A DNA stretch of 64,000 nt from a virus. The notes under the pieces are model-generated. The model worked only from the letters and a program-made list of their open reading frames with translations. It ran no database searches and was not told the origin of the DNA. This document shows, piece by piece, positions 13,979-21,956 of the stretch (positions are counted from its first letter, which is position 1; each line of letters begins with the position of its first letter). Position numbers and translations under genes: made by a program. The DNA is taken from the IMG/VR virus record IMGVR_UViG_3300025098_000019, positions 46,011-110,010 of that record. One strand, written 5' to 3'.

Positions 13979-14428
13979 ATGCAGTGGACTTATGAAGGCA
14001 AAATTATAGACAATATACCAGACGAATACGAAGGTTTTGTTTATATCATTACAAACACCACTACAGATCAAAAATACATAGGCAAAAAACTAGCAAAGTT
14101 TAAAACTACTAAGCCACCACTTAAAGGCAAGAAAAATAAAAGACGCGGTTACAAAGAAAGCGACTGGAGAACATACTACGGTAGTTCTGATAGATTAAAC
14201 GCAGATGTAGCCGAGCTAGGCGAAGACAAGTTTACAAGAGAAATATTATACCTATGTAAAGGTAGGGGCGAAATGTCCTATATAGAGGCACGAGAGCAGT
14301 TTGACAGGCGAGTACTTGAAACTGATGATTACTATAATGGTATCATTAATGTTAGAGTAGGCGGATCAGACAAACTTAAACAGGCATTGCTAGAACATCA
14401 CATCAAGGCAAAACATTCCAACACCTAA
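13979..14428 (+). CDS. Stand-alone GIY-YIG endonuclease
   Basis: GFVYIITN...KYIGKK, YYGSS, FTREIL, catalytic-type E (IEAREQ) and YYN motifs; no C-terminal DNA-binding repeats. Confidence 0.85.
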   Translation: MQWTYEGKIIDNIPDEYEGFVYIITNTTTDQKYIGKKLAKFKTTKPPLKGKKNKRRGYKESDWRTYYGSSDRLNADVAELGEDKFTREILYLCKGRGEMSYIEAREQFDRRVLETDDYYNGIINVRVGGSDKLKQALLEHHIKAKHSNT

Positions 14429-14830
14429 GGTTGGCGGGCCAGATTAGAAATACCGCTGTGGAAAAAGCTCTCGTATAGAAGCACACGTACATATTGATTG
14501 ACACACCAGAGTGTGGAAGCCACCAAACAAATTGGGCTCACTAGTTGATATAGATTGCATGTTGGCAGTCGAAAAACACAAACACAGTACATAAAAACTC
14601 TTTAGCAATAGGAACGAAGCGAGAGGTAGCTGGAAACAGCGATGTCGACGTAGGTTGGGAAAGGTCAGAGCCCATTGTACTTTGTGTATAAACAATTACC
14701 TACTTCCAATGTCTCGGCTGGTGCGACTCACATGAAGCGTATTTTGAGATTAGATGGGACCGTAACAGGTTCCGTCTGACTGAAACAATCTACATGAAAC
14801 TTAAACATTATTACTTCGTAATAATGCATT
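14429..14830 (+). ncRNA. Candidate large structured non-coding RNA
   Basis: About 400 nt, GC-richer, no credible ORF; many complementary segments (TGGGCTC/GAGCCCA, TAGATTG/CAATCTA, GTAGGT/ACCTAC, GCTG-GAAA-CAGC, AGATGGGACC/GGTTCCGTCT). Strand assumed from the upstream gene and the GAAA tetraloop. Confidence 0.55.
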
Positions 14831-14963: not shown

Positions 14964-15731
14964 ATGAAAATAAATGATATATTAAATGAATCTGATGTTA
15001 AAGCTGATCCAAAGATAGTGGATAAATTTGCTGGCGTAAGTGATAGTCAAAGATCATACTACATATACCAATGGGCAAAAGAAAAAGGCATTGACAGCGA
15101 TGACGCAATGCAACTAGCTGGATATAAGCGTGGTAGTTATATGGGTGCAGGATCTTACATGTGGAACTATGCTCCAAACGAAAGCATTGAGGAAGCACCT
15201 GCAGGTATGTTAAAACAAGTAGGACGTAGACTTGGTGCTAAGGCCGCAGGCGCTATAGGCATGAAAGGCACCGCAGCAAAATTAGGCGGGGCTGCTGACG
15301 CAGGCAAAGCAGCAAATCAGTTAAAAGTTAAACTTCAAGGATACCTTGGTAAAACTGGCGGTAATATAAAGCAATTAGATGCTCAAGAACTTTCTGCATT
15401 TTTAAAACAACAACAACTTCCAACTAACGCTGTACCTGCAAGTGGTATAATTGCACCAAAAGACGTTGATAAAGTTTTAATGAAAACTATTCAAACAAGT
15501 AATAAAGCCGCAGGCGCACCTGCTGGCGATGCACCACAACAAGATGCACCACAACAAGCAGCAGGTGGCGGACAGCAACAAGCAGCAGCACCACAAGCAA
15601 GTGCTCCACAAAAACAAGCAAGTGCTCCGCAACAACAGGCAGCAAGTGCAACAGGAATACCTGCAAATATACAAGCGCAGTTAGATTCGCTAACACCAAC
15701 AGAGAAAAAAGTATTGGCAGGAGTTATATAA
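14964..15731 (+). CDS. Putative internal head/virion protein, Ala/Gln-rich
   Basis: Late promoter; N-terminus MKINDILNE resembles capsid-targeting leaders; low-complexity APQQ repeats. Confidence 0.5.
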   Translation: MKINDILNESDVKADPKIVDKFAGVSDSQRSYYIYQWAKEKGIDSDDAMQLAGYKRGSYMGAGSYMWNYAPNESIEEAPAGMLKQVGRRLGAKAAGAIGMKGTAAKLGGAADAGKAANQLKVKLQGYLGKTGGNIKQLDAQELSAFLKQQQLPTNAVPASGIIAPKDVDKVLMKTIQTSNKAAGAPAGDAPQQDAPQQAAGGGQQQAAAPQASAPQKQASAPQQQAASATGIPANIQAQLDSLTPTEKKVLAGVI

Positions 15732-18010
15732 TGAAATTAACCGAAGTTACATTATACGAAAATAAATCACACAGAATTTTAAAAGAAGGCTGGCAGGATC
15801 TTACTGAATCACAAAAACTTTATCAAGGAAGATTTGAAAAAGAACTTTGGCCATTAGTTGAACAATACACAAAACTAGCAGAAGCAGAACTTTCTAGACA
15901 ACAAGTATTAGATATCTTTAGTGGTGCTGAACAAGTTGCAATGGACAGTGGCGATAATAAAACAATCGCTGGTAAAGTAGGCGCAGGCGCAGCAGCAGCC
16001 GCAAAACTTCCTGTAGATATTGCTAAAAAAGTTGATGCAAAAATTAACGAACTAGGTAAACTAGCACAAAATGCAGGTCCTGTAAAAAATGCAGATGCTA
16101 AGTTTGCACAACTTAAGAAAGATATTACTGCAAATAACAGTGACAGTAAAATTGTACAAGGTGTACAAAAGATAAGTGATTGGGCAAAAGCAAATCCTGG
16201 TAAAGCAAGTGTAGCTGTTGGTATTTTAACTACTATGGCAGCATTTGCAGGCGGTCCTGCGGGCGGCGCAGCAGCAGGTTTGGTACTACGTGCATCAAAA
16301 GATTTATTACAAGGCGAGGAGCTTTCAGCAGCAGTTGGCAAGTCAATCAAGACTGGTGTTTATGGTGCTCTTGCTGGCATGGCATTTAGTGAACTTACAG
16401 ATAATATTGTTGATAACATTTCATCTGCACAAGGCGCAGAGCTTGAAGCAATGGAAGCAAGTTTGAAAGCTGAAAATCTTGCAACAGCAAAAGCTGACTT
16501 ATTTGCAGACCTAGGAATGGAAGTTGATGTTCTAGACGGTGCAACTAGAATTGATATGAGTGGAAACTTAAATGGATTCTACTATTCATATGACACAGTT
16601 ATTCCACCAGACATGATGGGTCAATACGAAGCATTAAGTAATGCAGTAAGTAGTGCAGATACATTTAGTCCTGAACACTATGCAGCAGCAGCCAAGTTCC
16701 ATGATTTTATGGGCGGATTAGTTGACGCTCCTGAAGCAAAGAATTTAACAGCAGCCTGGGACGCACTAAAAGAAATACCAAAAGAACAGTTAACTACTGC
16801 AAACCTTGATACACTTCTTGCTCAAGCAGAATCTAGTGGTGCAGTATTAACCGCATTAAATGATGCAGGCGGAGCAATAGCTGCGGCTGCTCAAGGTGCA
16901 TTACAAACAGTTGACGATACTGCCAAAGATGCACATAAAGCAAAGCCAGTTGATCCAGAAATTAAGCAACAACTTGAACTAGATTTAAAAGGCGGAAGCA
17001 ATGCAAAAGCAGAATCAATGTCAATGGAAGAACGCTTTGAATTGTATCTAGCAGAAGCAGATCCTGCACAAGGAGAATTGCCTTTAGATAATCCTAATAC
17101 AATGGGTGCAAAACTAAAGCGTGGAGCAGGAAAACTTGCAGGTAAAGCCGCAGGTGCAGTAAAAGGCGCAGCAAGTTCAGCAGCAGGTGCAGTAAAACAA
17201 GGTGCAAAAGATGTTGGTAATAAAGTTACTGCTAATAAACTTACAAAAACTTGGAAGTCAATGGGAGAACCAACTGACGCAGGAAGTATTGCTAATATTT
17301 TAGCAGATGCAGGTGTAAGTAATGACCAAATTGCACAAATAAGTAAAACTGCTAACGTAAAATTACAACCTACGCCAAAATCAACAGCAGCAGATCCTAA
17401 AGCAGCAGCAAAAGCAACTGCAACTGCAAAAGCAACTGCAAAAGATCCTAAAGCAGCAGCAGCAGAGCCTAAATCAGCAATTTCTAAAGGTGCTAATAAA
17501 GCAACTGCAACAAAGCCAATGAAAAAAGGTACTACAAAAGAAGTAGGCGGCAAAACTTATCGTTGGGAAGGCGCACTTTGGGTAGACACTGCAACAAATA
17601 AACCAGTGAGTGTTGCAAATGCAATGAAAATGGGATTAGGTAATCCTAAATTAGACCCAATTATATCAGCAGCGAAAAAAGATCCTGCACTTGCTAAGTT
17701 AATTAAACAACAAATTACTTCTAAAGGTGTTAAAGCAGGTACTGCGCAAGCAGCAAAAGCAGCACAACCAGATGCTAAAAATAAAGTAGCTCCAAAAGCA
17801 GCTCCGGCAGCTAGTGTAGCACCAAAAGCAGCACCGACAGCTAATGTAGCACCAAAAGCAGCAGCAACTAAGAAGACAGCCGCAAAAGCAGCACCAGCAG
17901 CTAATGTAGCAACTGCAAAATCAGGTGGTAAACTTAAGAAAGCAGCAGGCGCAGTAAAAAGTGGTTATAAAAATTATAATAAAATGAGTGCTTTAAATCC
18001 AGGTTCTTAA
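15731..18010 (+). CDS. Putative internal head/ejection protein with Ala/Lys-rich C-terminus
   Basis: MKLTEVTLYE N-terminus, a hydrophobic Gly/Ala hairpin (AVGILTTMAAFAGGPAGGAAAG), and APKAAP repeats. Confidence 0.5.
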   Translation: MKLTEVTLYENKSHRILKEGWQDLTESQKLYQGRFEKELWPLVEQYTKLAEAELSRQQVLDIFSGAEQVAMDSGDNKTIAGKVGAGAAAAAKLPVDIAKKVDAKINELGKLAQNAGPVKNADAKFAQLKKDITANNSDSKIVQGVQKISDWAKANPGKASVAVGILTTMAAFAGGPAGGAAAGLVLRASKDLLQGEELSAAVGKSIKTGVYGALAGMAFSELTDNIVDNISSAQGAELEAMEASLKAENLATAKADLFADLGMEVDVLDGATRIDMSGNLNGFYYSYDTVIPPDMMGQYEALSNAVSSADTFSPEHYAAAAKFHDFMGGLVDAPEAKNLTAAWDALKEIPKEQLTTANLDTLLAQAESSGAVLTALNDAGGAIAAAAQGALQTVDDTAKDAHKAKPVDPEIKQQLELDLKGGSNAKAESMSMEERFELYLAEADPAQGELPLDNPNTMGAKLKRGAGKLAGKAAGAVKGAASSAAGAVKQGAKDVGNKVTANKLTKTWKSMGEPTDAGSIANILADAGVSNDQIAQISKTANVKLQPTPKSTAADPKAAAKATATAKATAKDPKAAAAEPKSAISKGANKATATKPMKKGTTKEVGGKTYRWEGALWVDTATNKPVSVANAMKMGLGNPKLDPIISAAKKDPALAKLIKQQITSKGVKAGTAQAAKAAQPDAKNKVAPKAAPAASVAPKAAPTANVAPKAAATKKTAAKAAPAANVATAKSGGKLKKAAGAVKSGYKNYNKMSALNPGS
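17785..17915 (+). repeat. Coding tandem repeats VAPKAAP(A/T)A(S/N), ~30-bp unit
   Basis: gtagc(t/a)ccaaaagcagc... recurs 3-4 times. Confidence 0.7.
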
Positions 18011-18243
18011 AAGAACGGTAAACCTGACTTTTTAGTAGTTTCCATATTGTCTTTAACAATACCACTTATCATTTCGCGTTCTTCTGAAGACAAATAGTGT
18101 GCTTCAGTGTAGGATAATCCCCCTCGCATATACCAAACAGTTTGTAGTAAATCATTTTTGATTTGCTTGACTTGATTTTCTAGGACCTTAACTTCTTTTA
18201 ATATTTCGTCAAGGGGTAGGTTTAAGATCCTTATGCGAAAAAA
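18007..18243 (-). CDS. gp51-like ORF without its own start, probably expressed by -1 frameshift from gp26
   Basis: Open frame FFRIRILNLPLDEILKEVKVLENQVKQIKNDLLQTVWYMRGGLSYTEAHYLSSEEREMISGIVKDNMETTKKSGLPFF*; begins at the slippery T TTT TTC. The M...LS..E...L...ER pattern resembles gp51. Confidence 0.7.
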   Translation of the reverse strand, partial: FFRIRILNLPLDEILKEVKVLENQVKQIKNDLLQTVWYMRGGLSYTEAHYLSSEEREMISGIVKDNMETTKKSGLPFF

Positions 18244-19088
18244 TTTGTTTGATCAAATGCAATTGGTACTTCGTATGATGCAGGAACACCTTTTGTAATT
18301 TCTTCGTCTGTTGCATCAACTATCATTGGTTTAATTTCAAAAGAATCTTTTTGACTTTGTAAATGATTTTGAATATGCTCAAAAGTTGTTTTATCAGCAT
18401 TTTCAATAAACTCGCTGATGTGTTCTCTACTTGTAACTACATCGTCGCCTATCTGAATAGATTGTATACTAAACTTTATGCTGTCAACAGTAAGATCTGT
18501 TAGTTTTTTAAAGCTAGACTGAAACTGTGATAGTTTTTCTTCTTCAGTTAAGTCTTGATCATTAACAACTGCAAATATTCTTTGCTCTTCAAATGTTTTT
18601 AAGTTAACTGATGTAAATTCTTTGTATGTTAACGGCTTCATTGTAATAGTTAAATCACCCATTATACAAGTACCATTGTATTGTGCAGAAATTAGTCTTT
18701 CAAGAATAATTTTTAAGTCTAACTCAAAGTCTTTTTCTTCTTCAGTTATCGGTGTTGTAGTTGTTAGTGTCATCATATCGCCATAAGTTGCAATTCTAAT
18801 AGCAACTAGTGCAGCGTCAACATCTAAACTTGGCATATTCCATGCATTTTTAATATTAGGAATACAACTTTGAATAATATCAACAGTTGCTTGTCCGTTT
18901 AATAGTGCATCAGGTGTTTTTATAATCATCTCGTCTTTTGCTGTCATAGCATAGACTGGATATTCGTTGTTTTCTAGCAAATCGATACTATTGTTACCAT
19001 AGTATTGACCTTGAGACGGTAAAGATAGGTAAATCTTTGGTTGTCTGAAGTACTTTTGTAACGGATTAGCCGTTGCGGTATTAGTCAT
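18231..19088 (-). CDS. gp26: Baseplate hub assembly chaperone gp26-like
   Basis: LSLPSQG..Y, V.AMTAKDE, LDVDAALVAIRIATYG and the C-terminal NFF typical of gp26 family proteins. Confidence 0.75.
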   Translation of the reverse strand: MTNTATANPLQKYFRQPKIYLSLPSQGQYYGNNSIDLLENNEYPVYAMTAKDEMIIKTPDALLNGQATVDIIQSCIPNIKNAWNMPSLDVDAALVAIRIATYGDMMTLTTTTPITEEEKDFELDLKIILERLISAQYNGTCIMGDLTITMKPLTYKEFTSVNLKTFEEQRIFAVVNDQDLTEEEKLSQFQSSFKKLTDLTVDSIKFSIQSIQIGDDVVTSREHISEFIENADKTTFEHIQNHLQSQKDSFEIKPMIVDATDEEITKGVPASYEVPIAFDQTNFFA

Positions 19089-19166: not shown

Positions 19167-21956
19167 GTGGCAGAAGAAATTGAAATTAGTAATGTAGGCG
19201 GAGCCAATGGTGTTGCAAGTGAAGCAACGCTTAAAGCTCTTGTTGATGCATTAAACAAAAAAGACGGATCTGGCGCCTCTGGCAAGGCAGCAAAACAGTA
19301 TAACGACCAATTAAAAAATGGTGCAACAGTAACTAGAGACAATAATAAAGCAACAAAGACTAATACTAAAGCTACTATTAGTGCTTCAGAAGCTACAAGT
19401 AAGTTTGCTTCAAAATTAAGTGGTGCCGCATTAGGCGCAATTGGTGCTATAGCTGGTTCAATAGGTAATCTTGGTAAAGAGTTTATCAATGGCGGTAGTC
19501 AACTAGGTGATTTTACACAGCACTTACCTTTAGTTGGACAAGCAATATCTCCTTTAGTTGGATTAATTGACGATAGTGTATCAAGCTTCAGAGCATTGTC
19601 AAGTGTTGGTGCTAGTTTTGGTAACAGTATAACTGATATGCGTCTAGCATCTGCTAATGCCGGATTAAGTATGGAAGAATTCTCTGGCTTAATAGGTAGT
19701 AATTCAGAAACACTTCGATTATTAGGTGGAACTGTTTCACAAGGTACTCAAAGATTCCTTCAAATGAATCGTAATCTTAAAGATACTGGTGATTTTGAAA
19801 CTCTAAAGAACTTAGGCTTTACAGTTATGGACATCAACGAAGGAATGGTTGATTACATTGACTTACAAGCTAATTTAGGTAGAAACCAAAAGCGTAGTGC
19901 TGCAAGCCTAGCACAAGGTTCATCGCAATACCTACAACAACTAGATGCACTTGCAAAAGTAACAGGTAAATCTAGAAAAGAATTAGCAGCTACACTGAAT
20001 AAGCAATCACAAGACGCAGGTTTCAGAGCATTAATGAATCAGTTTGAAGCAGGAAGCGAAAAAGCTGAGAATTTTGCATCAAGCATGGCTTTGATTGACA
20101 CACTTCCTGCAGAAGTTGCAACAGGATTAAAAGACTTAGCAGATGGCGTAGCACAAACGCCCGAAGCAGTAGCATTAATAAATGCAGCAGGCCCAGAAAT
20201 TGCAGATGCAATGGAAGCTGTTGCTAACGGAGCAGATCCACAAGTTATAATCGATGCACTTGGTAAAGCAGGTGTTGATATGGAAAAATTTGCAGGACTT
20301 GAAGGCAAACAAAGAGCTGCATTCATTCAAAATCTAAGGCAAACAAATCCTACACTAGCAGCAATACTTGATTCTTCTACTCAATTAACTAAGATAGGTA
20401 ATGCAGAATTTAAAAAAGCACAAGGCGAACAGAAAAAACGAGACGAGATTACAGCATCACTTACTACATTCGATGATTCCGTTCGCGAAGTTAGATCAAA
20501 ACTATCTAAAGCGTTTATTGAGAGTGGCCTCTTTGAAGCTATCTCAGGTCAAACTGGTAATTTAGCTGATGGACTAGCAGCAGCAGTGCCGCATATTGTA
20601 AATTTCTTAAAAGAGTTTACATCTATTGCACAAGGTGAAGGTTTCGGAGCAGCAATTTCTCAAAAAATTATTGATCCAATGAAAGAAGCGTTACTTAACG
20701 GTATTAAAGGACTTTGGACAGACTCAAGTATATTTTCAAAAATGGCTATTGGTATTTTGGGCTTATTTGCAGGAGCAAAAGTTGTTGGCGCTCTAACAGG
20801 CGGCCTAAGTAAATTATTTGGCGTTGGTGGCGGCGGCGGCATGGGCGGTGGCGGAATGCCAGGCAAAGGCAAAGGAGCAGCCGCAGGTAAAGGTGCAGGA
20901 GCGTTTGTTGGAAACGTAGCTGGCGGAGCAATGACAGGTGCTGCTAAAGGACTTAGTGCATTTGCAAGTCCGCAAGTAGCAATTGGTGCAGGTGTATTAG
21001 CAGGAACAATCTTAGTAGTTGGCGGAGCAGTAGCAGGCGCAACATGGATGATGGGCAAAGCACTACCAACATTTGCAGAAGGTTTAACAAAATTTGAAGA
21101 ACTAGACGGCGAAAAACTTAAATCAGCTGGTTTAGGTATGGTTGCTATCGGTGGAGGCTTTGCAGCCTTCGGCGTAGGAGGTGTTGCAGCAGGCATAGGC
21201 GGCATTATTGGCAGCATATCCGAAGGGCTGCTAGGAATGTTTGGCGGTGACGATCCATTAACTAAGATAAAAAAGTTTGGTGATGCTGATATTGATGCAG
21301 TAAAAGTAAAAGCAAACGCAGAAGCAATGGTTGCATTTGGTGAAGCAATGGGTGCAGCAGGTGTAGGAAATGCAGCAGCAGGAGCAGGCGGAATTGTAGG
21401 AGCATTTGCAAGTTTCTTTGCTGACGATCCAACAGAGCAAGTTAAAGAGTTTGGCAAACTAGATATTAATGCGGACGGTGTTACTAATAATGCCAATGCA
21501 ATGCTAGTGATGTCACAAGGCATCGCTGCAATGGCAAACGCCGGTATATCTTCACTAACAATAGATGATGGGCTAATAGACAACTTTTCTACATTATCAA
21601 AAATAGGCCCAGGATTAGATACAGCAGGTGATGCAATAGTTAAAATAGCAGGTGTTGCTGACCTAAGTGGAAATGTTGATTTGTTAAATTCGATTGACAG
21701 AAGTGGAATAAGAAACTATAATATAGAATTAGCTAAGATGGTTGATTTGCTTGAAAACATGAATACTGAACTATCAAAAGATAATAAATTTGGATTTGGC
21801 AGCGGAACAAATGCCGGAGACGTGATGCAAACCATGGCTGACAGTGGTCAAGCCACTACTCAGCTAAGTACTACTATGCTTACAACATTGGAAGAGATAA
21901 AAGATATAAACAAAGCAAGTAAGACATTGCTTGGTGAAATAAAGAGAAATATATAA
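19167..21956 (+). CDS. Tape measure-like protein
   Basis: 929 aa, helical Ala/Gly-rich with hydrophobic Gly-rich segments and semi-repeats (DDPLTKIKKFG / DDPTEQVKEFG); adjacent to the gp26/gp51 chaperone pair. Confidence 0.65.
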   Translation: MAEEIEISNVGGANGVASEATLKALVDALNKKDGSGASGKAAKQYNDQLKNGATVTRDNNKATKTNTKATISASEATSKFASKLSGAALGAIGAIAGSIGNLGKEFINGGSQLGDFTQHLPLVGQAISPLVGLIDDSVSSFRALSSVGASFGNSITDMRLASANAGLSMEEFSGLIGSNSETLRLLGGTVSQGTQRFLQMNRNLKDTGDFETLKNLGFTVMDINEGMVDYIDLQANLGRNQKRSAASLAQGSSQYLQQLDALAKVTGKSRKELAATLNKQSQDAGFRALMNQFEAGSEKAENFASSMALIDTLPAEVATGLKDLADGVAQTPEAVALINAAGPEIADAMEAVANGADPQVIIDALGKAGVDMEKFAGLEGKQRAAFIQNLRQTNPTLAAILDSSTQLTKIGNAEFKKAQGEQKKRDEITASLTTFDDSVREVRSKLSKAFIESGLFEAISGQTGNLADGLAAAVPHIVNFLKEFTSIAQGEGFGAAISQKIIDPMKEALLNGIKGLWTDSSIFSKMAIGILGLFAGAKVVGALTGGLSKLFGVGGGGGMGGGGMPGKGKGAAAGKGAGAFVGNVAGGAMTGAAKGLSAFASPQVAIGAGVLAGTILVVGGAVAGATWMMGKALPTFAEGLTKFEELDGEKLKSAGLGMVAIGGGFAAFGVGGVAAGIGGIIGSISEGLLGMFGGDDPLTKIKKFGDADIDAVKVKANAEAMVAFGEAMGAAGVGNAAAGAGGIVGAFASFFADDPTEQVKEFGKLDINADGVTNNANAMLVMSQGIAAMANAGISSLTIDDGLIDNFSTLSKIGPGLDTAGDAIVKIAGVADLSGNVDLLNSIDRSGIRNYNIELAKMVDLLENMNTELSKDNKFGFGSGTNAGDVMQTMADSGQATTQLSTTMLTTLEEIKDINKASKTLLGEIKRNI

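What the first reader, a model, noticed from the sequence alone, without database searches (positions are those of the whole stretch)
18007..18250. Programmed -1 frameshift fusing gp26 to a start-less gp51-like ORF, with a downstream stem and pseudoknot
On the minus strand gp26 ends AAT TTT TTC GCA TAA, containing the slippery heptamer T TTT TTC (18243-18237). The -1 frame stays open for 78 codons to 18007 and has no ATG for its first 37 codons. Five nt after the heptamer a 10-bp stem begins, AGGATCTTAA (18231-18222) / TTAAGGTCCT (18191-18182). Its loop CCCCTTG (18216-18210) can pair with CGAGGGG (18126-18120) to form a pseudoknot. This matches the lambda G/GT tail-assembly-chaperone frameshift, and the gene is next to the tape measure-like gene. 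It suggests the gp26/gp51 pair of T4-like phages is a G/GT equivalent. The ORF track misses it.
Basis: partly seen in the sequence, partly recalled or inferred. Interest (0 to 1): 0.8.

Follow-up and report, generated by a model that had tools for sequence, protein, structure and literature searches.

The report
Frameshift in phage baseplate-hub chaperone gene
The single gp26-type tail-baseplate assembly gene of this uncultured giant T4-related phage very probably makes a 285-residue and a 360-residue protein, because some ribosomes slip back one base on a strictly conserved TTTTTTC; phage T4 encodes a matching short/long pair as two genes (26 and 51), and T4 is the named exception to the tail-chaperone frameshift of long-tailed phages.

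Summary
The sequence facts are correct at the stated coordinates. gp26 (PF12322) ends AAT TTT TTC GCA TAA. The -1 frame is open for 78 codons, with no ATG/GTG/TTG in its first 38. A 10-bp stem starts 5 nt after the heptamer.

Comparison makes a programmed -1 frameshift the best reading.
- All 87 related loci I fetched carry an in-frame T TTT TTC, and so do two cyanophages.
- The codon after the slip is Arg in the -1 frame in 64/64 colinear sequences, while the 0-frame residue there varies.
- No start codon is conserved; PA5oct has none.
- Natural in-frame fusions of 319-351 aa are colinear with the predicted product and lack the T-run.
- The stem is enriched about 20-fold over pseudo-sites and covaries.

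Six complete jumbo genomes and two cyanophage genomes with this layout have one PF12322 gene. T4 has two, gp26 and the longer gp51.

The pseudoknot is not supported: only this window pairs there. The neighbouring 929-aa ORF is not shown to be a tape measure. In T4, gene 51 is divergent from gene 26, not downstream. No tail-assembly-chaperone fold was detected.

No product was observed. I found no paper or annotation reporting the slip. This scan has already flagged the same signal on other DNA (at least 142 genomes).

The parts
18231..19088 (-). gp26-like baseplate-hub gene, 0 frame, 285 aa (the short product)
   Evidence: ORF list and translation. PF12322 T4_baseplate E 4e-11 and phrog_150 baseplate hub E 5e-15. 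AlphaFold model pLDDT 84.9.
18237..18243 (-). slippery heptamer T TTT TTC (0 frame AAT TTT TTC); two tRNA-Phe can re-pair on UUU UUU after a -1 slip
   Evidence: Sequence. TTTTTTC lies at the homologous position in 87/87 loci. The preceding codon varies (AAT, CAT, AGT, GCT, ACT, CGT) but always ends in T. The second Phe codon is always TTC, although TTC is 16% of Phe codons elsewhere in these genes.
18232..18236 (-). 5-nt spacer (GCATA) between heptamer and stem; overlaps the 0-frame stop TAA at 18233-18231
   Evidence: Sequence. Spacers of 5-6 nt in 43 of the 57 loci that have a helix of at least 7 bp.
18182..18231 (-). stimulatory stem-loop: 5' arm 18231-18222, 30-nt loop, 3' arm 18191-18182
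   Evidence: MFE and centroid helix. On 12 sequences with the same arm position: 91.7% of cells paired, 4 of 11 pairs with changes on both sides, 0/500 shuffles reach the covariation score, slid controls 24-55% paired. Pseudo-site and arm-swap controls.
18007..18243 (-). -1 frame extension: 78 codons plus stop, read as FFRIRILNL...WYMRGG...TTKKSGLPFF; the predicted long product is 360 aa (gp26 residues 1-284 plus 76 residues)
   Evidence: Translations. 190 homologues at E<=1e-3, including in-frame fusions. No stops in 64/64, Arg after FF in 64/64, dN/dS 0.34 for codons 3-37. In a natural fusion the same domain is modelled as four helices, pLDDT 83-94.
18120..18216 (-). proposed pseudoknot partners (18216-18210 and 18126-18120): rejected as chance complementarity
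   Evidence: Column-wise and shuffled-loop tests.
19167..21956 (+). divergent 929-aa ORF: candidate tape measure or virion protein, identity not established
   Evidence: No Pfam or PHROG match. The protein atlas gives a weak lead to PF10145 (score 0.93, 99 shared features). It is Ala/Gly-rich, has three hydrophobic segments, and its homologues range from 520 to 1504 aa. No hhalign match to the T4 gp29 family. The RaK2 counterpart is annotated as similar to a tape measure.

Best explanation
The 3' end of the gp26-type gene carries a programmed -1 ribosomal frameshift site. Most ribosomes read AAU UUU UUC GCA UAA and release the 285-aa short form. A fraction pause over the stem that starts 5 nt downstream, with tRNA-Phe in both the P site (UUU) and the A site (UUC). 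Both tRNAs slip back one base onto UUU UUU, and the ribosome continues in the -1 frame for 76 more codons. The result is a 360-aa long form that carries a helical C-terminal domain.

Shown here: the signal, its conservation, coding selection in the -1 frame starting exactly at the slip site, natural in-frame equivalents, and stem covariation.

Inferred: that the product is made; that the shift is low-level, because the stem is weak; and that the two forms act together as baseplate-hub or tail assembly chaperones, the extension adding a second binding surface. That would mirror lambda G/GT and the T4 paralogue pair gp26 (short) and gp51 (long).
For: (1) The layout is conserved across very distant relatives. 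Atu_ph07, Phosso, PA5oct, 121Q, RaK2 and GAP32 share about 27-33% gp26 identity with the window, yet all have xxT TTT TTC followed by a 72-79 codon -1 ORF. The same holds in 80/80 IMG/VR loci and in cyanophages S-PM2 and P-SSM2.

(2) -1-frame coding begins at the slip site. The next -1 codon is Arg in 64/64, while the overlapping 0-frame residue is A, G, V or E. The second Phe codon is TTC in all loci, against a 16% background. The region has no stops in 64/64, whereas the other frames average 3-4 stops. dN/dS is 0.34 for codons 3-37.

(3) No start is conserved. The first ATG/GTG/TTG lies anywhere from codon -15 to +38, and PA5oct has none.

(4) Natural single-frame proteins of 319-351 aa carry PF12322 plus the same domain at the extreme C-terminus (extension against extension: hhalign E 1.5e-41). 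Their junction aligns without a gap to the predicted fusion, and the one whose DNA I could read has CGT TTT CGT, with no T6 run.

(5) The stem is supported. A helix of at least 10 bp starts 3-8 nt after the heptamer in 52% of sites, against 2.6% of pseudo-sites. Cognate arms pair for 9.3 bp on average, swapped arms for 6.7 bp. Four compensatory pairs occur in the window's class.

(6) Gene counts fit. There is one PF12322 gene in each of six complete jumbo genomes and two cyanophage genomes with this layout. There are two in T4, and two in tandem (short, then long in frame) in contig L089.

(7) A profile of predicted fusions aligns to the gp51 family over 31-247 of 249 positions, through the junction (E 8e-5, probability 61%).
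Against: No protein, peptide or reporter data exist; everything is comparative.

The window's own stem is weak (-9.3 kcal/mol, 30-nt loop, z = -0.54).

The genomes are AT-rich. TTT is 84% of Phe codons and T is 73% of the relevant third positions, so part of the T-run conservation is expected. Chance heptamers are also common.

The 80 IMG/VR loci are related to one another (53-67% identity in the extension), so they are not 80 independent observations.

Twelve of the 87 loci have ATG at -1-frame codon index 3, as in Atu_ph07 and Phosso, where it overlaps the 0-frame stop. Cyanophages have an ATG five codons after the heptamer. Independent or coupled initiation could add to, or in some lineages replace, the slip.

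The sequence classes used for the covariation count were chosen because they have a helix at that position.
Confidence: 0.85

Rival explanations
1. The downstream ORF is a separate small gene. It would be translated on its own by termination-reinitiation at the gp26 stop or from an internal or non-canonical start (ATA at 18235-18233, or the ATG at 18129), and no fusion protein would be made.
For: GenBank annotators call small separate ORFs here: Atu_ph07 gp687, 121Q gene 595, GAP32_242, Phosso 319 and cyanophage 'gp51'. Twelve of the 87 loci have ATG at -1-frame codon index 3; in Atu_ph07 and Phosso it overlaps the 0-frame stop as ATGA. The 0-frame stop is always within 1-6 codons of the start of the extension.
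Against: No start is conserved; its position ranges from codon -15 to +38, and PA5oct has none. In the window the first 38 codons would go untranslated, yet they lack stops and are under purifying selection. The Arg codon directly after the slip site lies upstream of every candidate restart codon, and it is invariant in the -1 frame while the 0-frame residue varies. This reading does not explain the invariant T TTT TTC, the stem at 5-6 nt, or the colinear natural fusions.
Confidence: 0.08
2. The shift happens at transcription. RNA polymerase stutters on the T6 run and adds one U to part of the mRNAs, and standard translation of those mRNAs gives the long form.
For: A homopolymer run sits exactly at the frame junction. 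Slippage-prone T/A runs are used this way in some bacterial and viral genes (Atkins et al. 2016, PMC5009743).
Against: The run is only six T in all 87 loci and never lengthens. From general knowledge, productive bacterial RNA polymerase slippage usually needs about 8-9 or more. The conserved in-frame register (xxT TTT TTC), the 5-6 nt spacer and the covarying downstream stem are the anatomy of ribosomal -1 frameshifting.
Confidence: 0.04
3. The arrangement is a decayed or misassembled gene: a frameshift mutation or homopolymer sequencing error in what should be one 360-aa ORF, or a dead remnant of a second paralogue.
For: Homopolymer runs are error-prone. Single-frame versions of the gene exist in other lineages.
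Against: The same frame offset occurs in 87 independent assemblies, among them finished isolate genomes from six jumbo-phage lineages, and in two cyanophages. The 0-frame stop position varies while the heptamer does not. The extension is under purifying selection.
Confidence: 0.02

Closest known systems
Phage T4 gp26 (208 aa) and gp51 (249 aa), baseplate hub assembly chaperones (Leiman et al. 2010, PMC3004832)
   Same: Both T4 proteins and the window's protein carry the PF12322 domain. gp51 equals that domain plus a C-terminal tail of about 48 aa, which begins right after the F-K/F-F motif where the window's frame changes. A profile of predicted fusions aligns to gp51 over its whole length. 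The cyanophage -1 ORF behind the same heptamer is clearly homologous to the gp51 tail (E 2e-9). Leiman et al. list gp26 and gp51 as hub assembly chaperones and say gp51 is absent from the particle.
   Different: T4 makes the two forms from two divergently transcribed genes, without a frameshift. The window's 78-aa extension matches the gp51 tail only weakly when compared alone (E 0.002-0.004, probability 8-15%, same register). The window's gp26 lacks the two CxxC pairs seen in T4 gp26, T4 gp51 and the natural fusions.
Lambda gpG/gpGT and the conserved -1 frameshift of tail assembly chaperone genes in long-tailed phages (Levin 1993 and Xu 2004, 2013, 2014, as reviewed by Atkins et al. 2016, PMC5009743)
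   Same: The logic is the same. A slippery heptamer lies a few codons before the stop of a tail-assembly gene. A short product and a C-terminally extended product share one N-terminal part. The two ORFs are annotated as separate genes unless someone looks for the shift. [quoted passage not shown]
   Different: The protein family differs (PF12322, about 285 aa). No tail-assembly-chaperone fold was found by Foldseek or VIA-align. The gene is not shown to lie next to a tape measure gene. The slip site is U UUU UUC with a stem, whereas lambda uses G GGA AAG (general knowledge). No binding partners are known.
Phage T7 gene 10A/10B -1 frameshift (G GUU UUC); general knowledge, not tested here
   Same: A -1 slip on a U-rich heptamer ending in UUC near the end of a phage structural gene adds a C-terminal extension of tens of residues.
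   Different: T7 gene 10 encodes a capsid protein, which is unrelated. The heptamer and its context differ.

Membership tests
-1 programmed ribosomal frameshift site | In-frame X XXY YYZ slippery heptamer that lets both tRNAs re-pair in the -1 frame | tested here: met
   T TTT TTC at 18243-18237, read as AAT TTT TTC. Invariant in 87/87 loci.
-1 programmed ribosomal frameshift site | Downstream RNA structure 5-9 nt after the heptamer, supported by covariation | tested here: met
   10-bp stem after a 5-nt spacer. A helix of at least 10 bp in 52% of sites against 2.6% of pseudo-sites. Four compensatory pairs, 0/500 shuffles. The window's own stem is thermodynamically weak.
-1 programmed ribosomal frameshift site | The -1 frame is open and under coding selection from the slip site, with no start of its own | tested here: met
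   78 codons. First start at codon 39 in the window, none in PA5oct. Arg after FF in 64/64. dN/dS 0.34.
-1 programmed ribosomal frameshift site | Trans-frame protein actually produced | not testable with these tools
   Needs mass spectrometry, a Western blot or a reporter assay.
T4 gp26/gp51 baseplate hub assembly family (Pfam PF12322) | Significant match to the PF12322 domain | tested here: met
   43.3 bits against a cut-off of 24.5. T4 gp26 and gp51 both match over the full length.
T4 gp26/gp51 baseplate hub assembly family (Pfam PF12322) | The long form carries a gp51-type C-terminal tail after the domain | tested here: inconclusive
   Full-length profile alignment runs through the junction to gp51 residue 247 (E 8e-5, probability 61%). 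Extension compared alone is weak. The cyanophage -1 ORF matches the gp51 tail robustly (E 2e-9).
Lambda G/GT-type tail assembly chaperones | Two overlapping ORFs joined by a -1 frameshift near the end of the first | tested here: met
   As above.
Lambda G/GT-type tail assembly chaperones | Gene pair lies immediately upstream of the tape measure gene | tested here: inconclusive
   The flanking 929-aa ORF is divergent, not downstream, and is not identifiable as a tape measure. There are only weak leads.
Lambda G/GT-type tail assembly chaperones | Chaperone fold or sequence family shared with known tail assembly chaperones | tested here: inconclusive
   No Pfam or PHROG chaperone family matched. 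Foldseek against the PDB gave nothing at E<=0.001. VIA-align hits cover only a helical hairpin at residues 151-210, Z<=8.2.
Lambda G/GT-type tail assembly chaperones | Both products needed for tail assembly in a fixed ratio and absent from virions | not testable with these tools
   Literature only: T4 gp51 is required but absent from the particle (PMC3004832).

The most novel reading that the evidence does not exclude
The T4 superfamily is not an exception to the tail-chaperone frameshift rule. Its hub-assembly chaperone gene ancestrally made a short and a long form by a -1 slip on U UUU UUC, and this state is kept in jumbo T4-related phages and cyanophages. T4 and its close relatives, and independently lineages such as contig L089, replaced the slip by gene duplication into a short gene (gp26) and a long gene (gp51). 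gp26/gp51 would then be the functional counterpart of lambda G/GT, with the extension recruiting a second tail component.
Probability: 0.45. Interest if true: 0.8.

Novelty: new variant of a known kind. Interest (0 to 1): 0.7.

Why it matters
Three reasons.

- Annotation. None of the annotated GenBank records I inspected, nor any row listed in the two tblastn searches (94 records matched), marks a frameshift here; these records and cyanophage genomes list gp26 and a small orphan ORF (or 'gp51') as separate genes, or leave the second unannotated. The real product set would be a short and a long gp26.

- A named gap. Atkins et al. 2016 state that the G-T frameshift is conserved in long-tailed phages 'except T4'. 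A conserved slip in the hub-chaperone gene of T4 relatives, with T4's own gp26/gp51 as the duplicated equivalent, would close that gap.

- Function of gp51. Leiman et al. [quoted passage not shown] This reading gives a testable idea for what it does.

It would also be a natural case of the same two-protein requirement being met either by recoding or by gene duplication.

Tried and rejected
- Pseudoknot: tested and rejected.

- Extension against known families: hmmscan of the 78-aa peptide against Pfam and PHROGs found nothing. The RaK2-type extension falls only in phrog_18291, function unknown.

- Rfam: no family matched over 17900-18400 at E<=1.

- Megablast of the region against phage records: no match.

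- Tape measure identity of the 929-aa ORF: PF25671 and PF10145 were absent from the 110-kb contig. There was no hhalign match to the T4 gp29 family and no Pfam domain on 120 homologues.

- Tail-assembly-chaperone fold for gp26: Foldseek against the PDB and VIA-align wide gave only generic helical-hairpin hits. An earlier scan note of such a fold in a cyanophage protein was not reproduced on this protein.

- tblastn with RaK2 gp26 did not reach cyanophages. I reached them by a PF12322 search of their records instead.

- Literature: nine full-text searches found no report of a gp26 or gp51 frameshift. The library misses most subscription papers, including Xu et al. 2004.
Full report
WHAT IS THERE

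On the minus strand, ORF 18231..19088 encodes a 285-aa protein. It matches Pfam PF12322 (T4_baseplate, E 4e-11) and phrog_150 (baseplate hub). It ends ACA AAT TTT TTC GCA TAA. The -1 frame opens at a TGA only three codons before the TTT TTT and then stays open for 78 codons, to a TAA at 18009-18007. The first ATG/GTG/TTG in that frame is codon 39.

The window is part of a 110-kb IMG/VR contig, estimated to be 30% of a genome. Portal, prohead protease, scaffold and major capsid genes of T4 type follow on the other strand. The source is therefore an uncultured jumbo T4-related phage.

RELATIVES SHOW THE SAME LAYOUT

tblastn of the 78-aa peptide finds the Agrobacterium jumbo phage Atu_ph07 and Sinorhizobium phage Phosso over residues 1-78, that is, including the start-less part. 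tblastn of gp26 finds 94 jumbo-phage records.

I read the junctions of six of them: Atu_ph07, Phosso, PA5oct, 121Q, RaK2 and GAP32. Each has xxT TTT TTC close to the gp26 stop. In each, a -1 ORF of 72-79 codons starts with FF(R/Q) and encodes a related domain. The 0-frame stop lies 1 to 6 codons after the heptamer, and the 0-frame residues there are not conserved. An ATG in the -1 frame is present in some, at varying positions, and absent from the whole frame in PA5oct.

A scan of IMG/VR gave 80 more loci with 53-67% identity in the extension. All 80 carry TTTTTTCG at the homologous position.

The residue before the two Phe varies (N, H, S, A, T, R), but its codon always ends in T. The second Phe codon is always TTC, although TTC is only 16% of Phe codons in the rest of these genes. 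The reason shows in the other frame. The -1 codon that begins with that C is Arg in 64/64 colinear sequences, while the overlapping 0-frame residue is A, G, V or E. So protein-coding selection in the -1 frame starts at the slip site, upstream of any possible restart codon.

The start-less region (codons 3-37) has no stop in 64/64 sequences; the other two frames average 3-4 stops there. Its dN/dS is about 0.34. dS is near saturation, so that figure is rough.

NATURAL IN-FRAME FUSIONS

A full HMMER search of 1.8 billion representatives with the 78-aa peptide gave 190 hits. Many are short ORFs whose called starts fall at different places. About 18 are proteins of 319-351 aa with the domain at the extreme C-terminus, matching query residues 2-77. 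These proteins carry PF12322 in front.

Their junction reads ...D.D...SFR.K(I/L)L...EEI. It aligns without a gap to the window's 0-frame ...AFDQTNFF followed by the -1 frame RIRILNLPLDEI. Extension against extension gives hhalign E 1.5e-41.

In the one fusion whose DNA I could fetch (L089), the junction is CGT TTT CGT, with no T6 run. A second PF12322 gene of the short type, without the extension, lies directly upstream of it.

RNA STRUCTURE

On its own it is weak: -9.3 kcal/mol, z = -0.54. The comparative evidence is much stronger.

- 52% of 73 unique sites have an uninterrupted helix of at least 10 bp starting 3-8 nt after the heptamer, against 2.6% of 1360 pseudo-sites inside the gp26 bodies.
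- Spacers of 5-6 nt dominate.
- The 3' arm sits at three alternative distances (about 30, 45-55 and 65 nt).
- Cognate arms pair better than arms swapped between loci, 9.3 against 6.7 bp.

On the 12 sequences that share the window's arm position, 91.7% of cells pair and 4 of 11 pairs show changes on both sides. No shuffle of 500 reaches the covariation score, and slid controls pair at 24-55%. That class was chosen for having a helix there, which inflates the percentage paired but not the compensatory changes.

The proposed pseudoknot fails. At the same columns relatives form 3.28 of 7 pairs, as the slid controls do, and loop-to-downstream complementarity equals the shuffled-loop value. Rfam has no match.

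RELATION TO T4 gp26 AND gp51

In T4, gene 26 is followed by gene 25, and gene 51 is transcribed divergently from gene 26.

Both T4 proteins are PF12322 over their full length, and gp51 has about 48 extra C-terminal residues. A profile of 66 predicted fusion products aligns to a profile of 92 gp51 homologues over gp51 residues 31-247 of 249. That alignment runs through the junction, placing FFR.R(I/L)L..P.(D/E)EI on V(D)VFKLLVNPDEI, and ...LS..ER..I on ...MIPAER... (E 8e-5, probability 61%). With the extension alone the same register returns, but weakly (E 0.002-0.004).

Cyanophages give the bridge. S-PM2 and P-SSM2 each have one PF12322 gene, ending CAG TCT/AGT TTT TTC G.A TAA. The annotated 57-aa 'gp51, baseplate hub assembly catalyst' is the -1 ORF behind that heptamer. 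It matches the T4 gp51 tail with 96% probability, E 2e-9.

Gene counts agree with a short/long requirement.
- One PF12322 gene in Atu_ph07, Phosso, PA5oct, 121Q, RaK2, GAP32, two large IMG/VR contigs and the two cyanophages.
- Two in T4.
- Two in L089.

STRUCTURE

The window's gp26 models well (pLDDT 84.9). It has no significant PDB neighbour by Foldseek, and by VIA-align only generic matches to its long helical hairpin.

A natural fusion models at pLDDT 90.4. Its extension forms four helices (residues 266-275, 279-306, 313-317 and 321-341). Its neighbours among predicted viral structures are baseplate hub proteins of many myoviruses. I could not show a lambda-type chaperone fold.

NEIGHBOUR

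The divergent 929-aa ORF is the positional counterpart of virion structural proteins in PA5oct, 121Q, RaK2 and GAP32. The RaK2 protein is annotated as similar to a tape measure. The window's ORF is Ala/Gly-rich with three hydrophobic segments, and its homologues vary from 520 to 1504 aa. A language-model search gives a weak lead to PF10145. No HMM or profile comparison supports a tape measure identity.

LITERATURE AND EARLIER NOTES

Leiman et al. 2010 list gp26 and gp51 as hub assembly chaperones. They describe gp51 as required, absent from the particle and of unknown function. Atkins et al. [quoted passage not shown] Nine full-text searches found no report of a frameshift in gp26 or gp51. None of the annotated records I inspected, and no feature listed under the match in the tblastn rows shown, marks one.

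I fixed my reading. After that, the scan's own index showed that other agents had reached the same conclusion on other DNA: 160 notes in at least 142 genomes. This is therefore a repeated, consistent signal across the T4 superfamily. Those notes are not independent proof.

VERDICT

A conserved -1 programmed ribosomal frameshift at the end of the gp26-type gene is very likely (0.85). The stem is real. The pseudoknot is not. That the two forms work like lambda G/GT, and correspond to T4 gp26/gp51, is a well-motivated inference (about 0.45-0.6), not a demonstrated fact.

Noticed in passing
L097:1120-1190 (S-PM2) and L098:1150-1215 (P-SSM2): In both cyanophages a GGAGG lies 10 nt upstream of the T TTT TTC heptamer (TTGGAGGGATTGCAG TCT/AGT TTT TTC). 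It resembles the internal Shine-Dalgarno stimulator of the E. coli dnaX frameshift (general knowledge). The window has no such element.
   Followed up: no
L089:6961-8960: Two PF12322 genes lie in tandem. The first is a short type without CxxC motifs and without the extension. The second is a long type with two CxxC pairs and the extension in frame, and has no T6 run. This is a duplicated alternative to the frameshift layout.
   Followed up: partly
window 15731-18010 (+): A 759-aa ORF with no Pfam or PHROG match converges on the extension ORF and overlaps its stop by 4 nt. Its C-terminus is an Ala/Lys-rich repetitive stretch, seen as GCTGCTGC... on the minus strand at 17800-17960.
   Followed up: no
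window 13979-14428 (+): A SegE-type GIY-YIG homing endonuclease (PF19835, E 2e-35). Earlier notes of this scan describe a structured RNA just downstream of it (14418-14830). I did not examine that RNA.
   Followed up: no
proteins P0155-P0246 (T4-type gp51 homologues): The precomputed annotation gives a second Pfam family, PF28602, on gp51 homologues. It is missing from two of the three truncated hits (P0247, P0248). PF28602 is not in the local Pfam copy. It may be a model of the gp51 C-terminal tail and would be worth scanning against the frameshift extensions.
   Followed up: no
window 31475-58773 (+): Three very large ORFs (2234, 2509 and 3563 aa) lie downstream of the head genes, as in other giant phages. 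I did not examine them.
   Followed up: no
L004:2334-2558 (PA5oct): The 75-codon -1 ORF behind gp26 is unannotated in MK797984 and contains no ATG, GTG or TTG at all. PA5oct is therefore the cleanest cultured system for testing the frameshift by mass spectrometry.
   Followed up: partly
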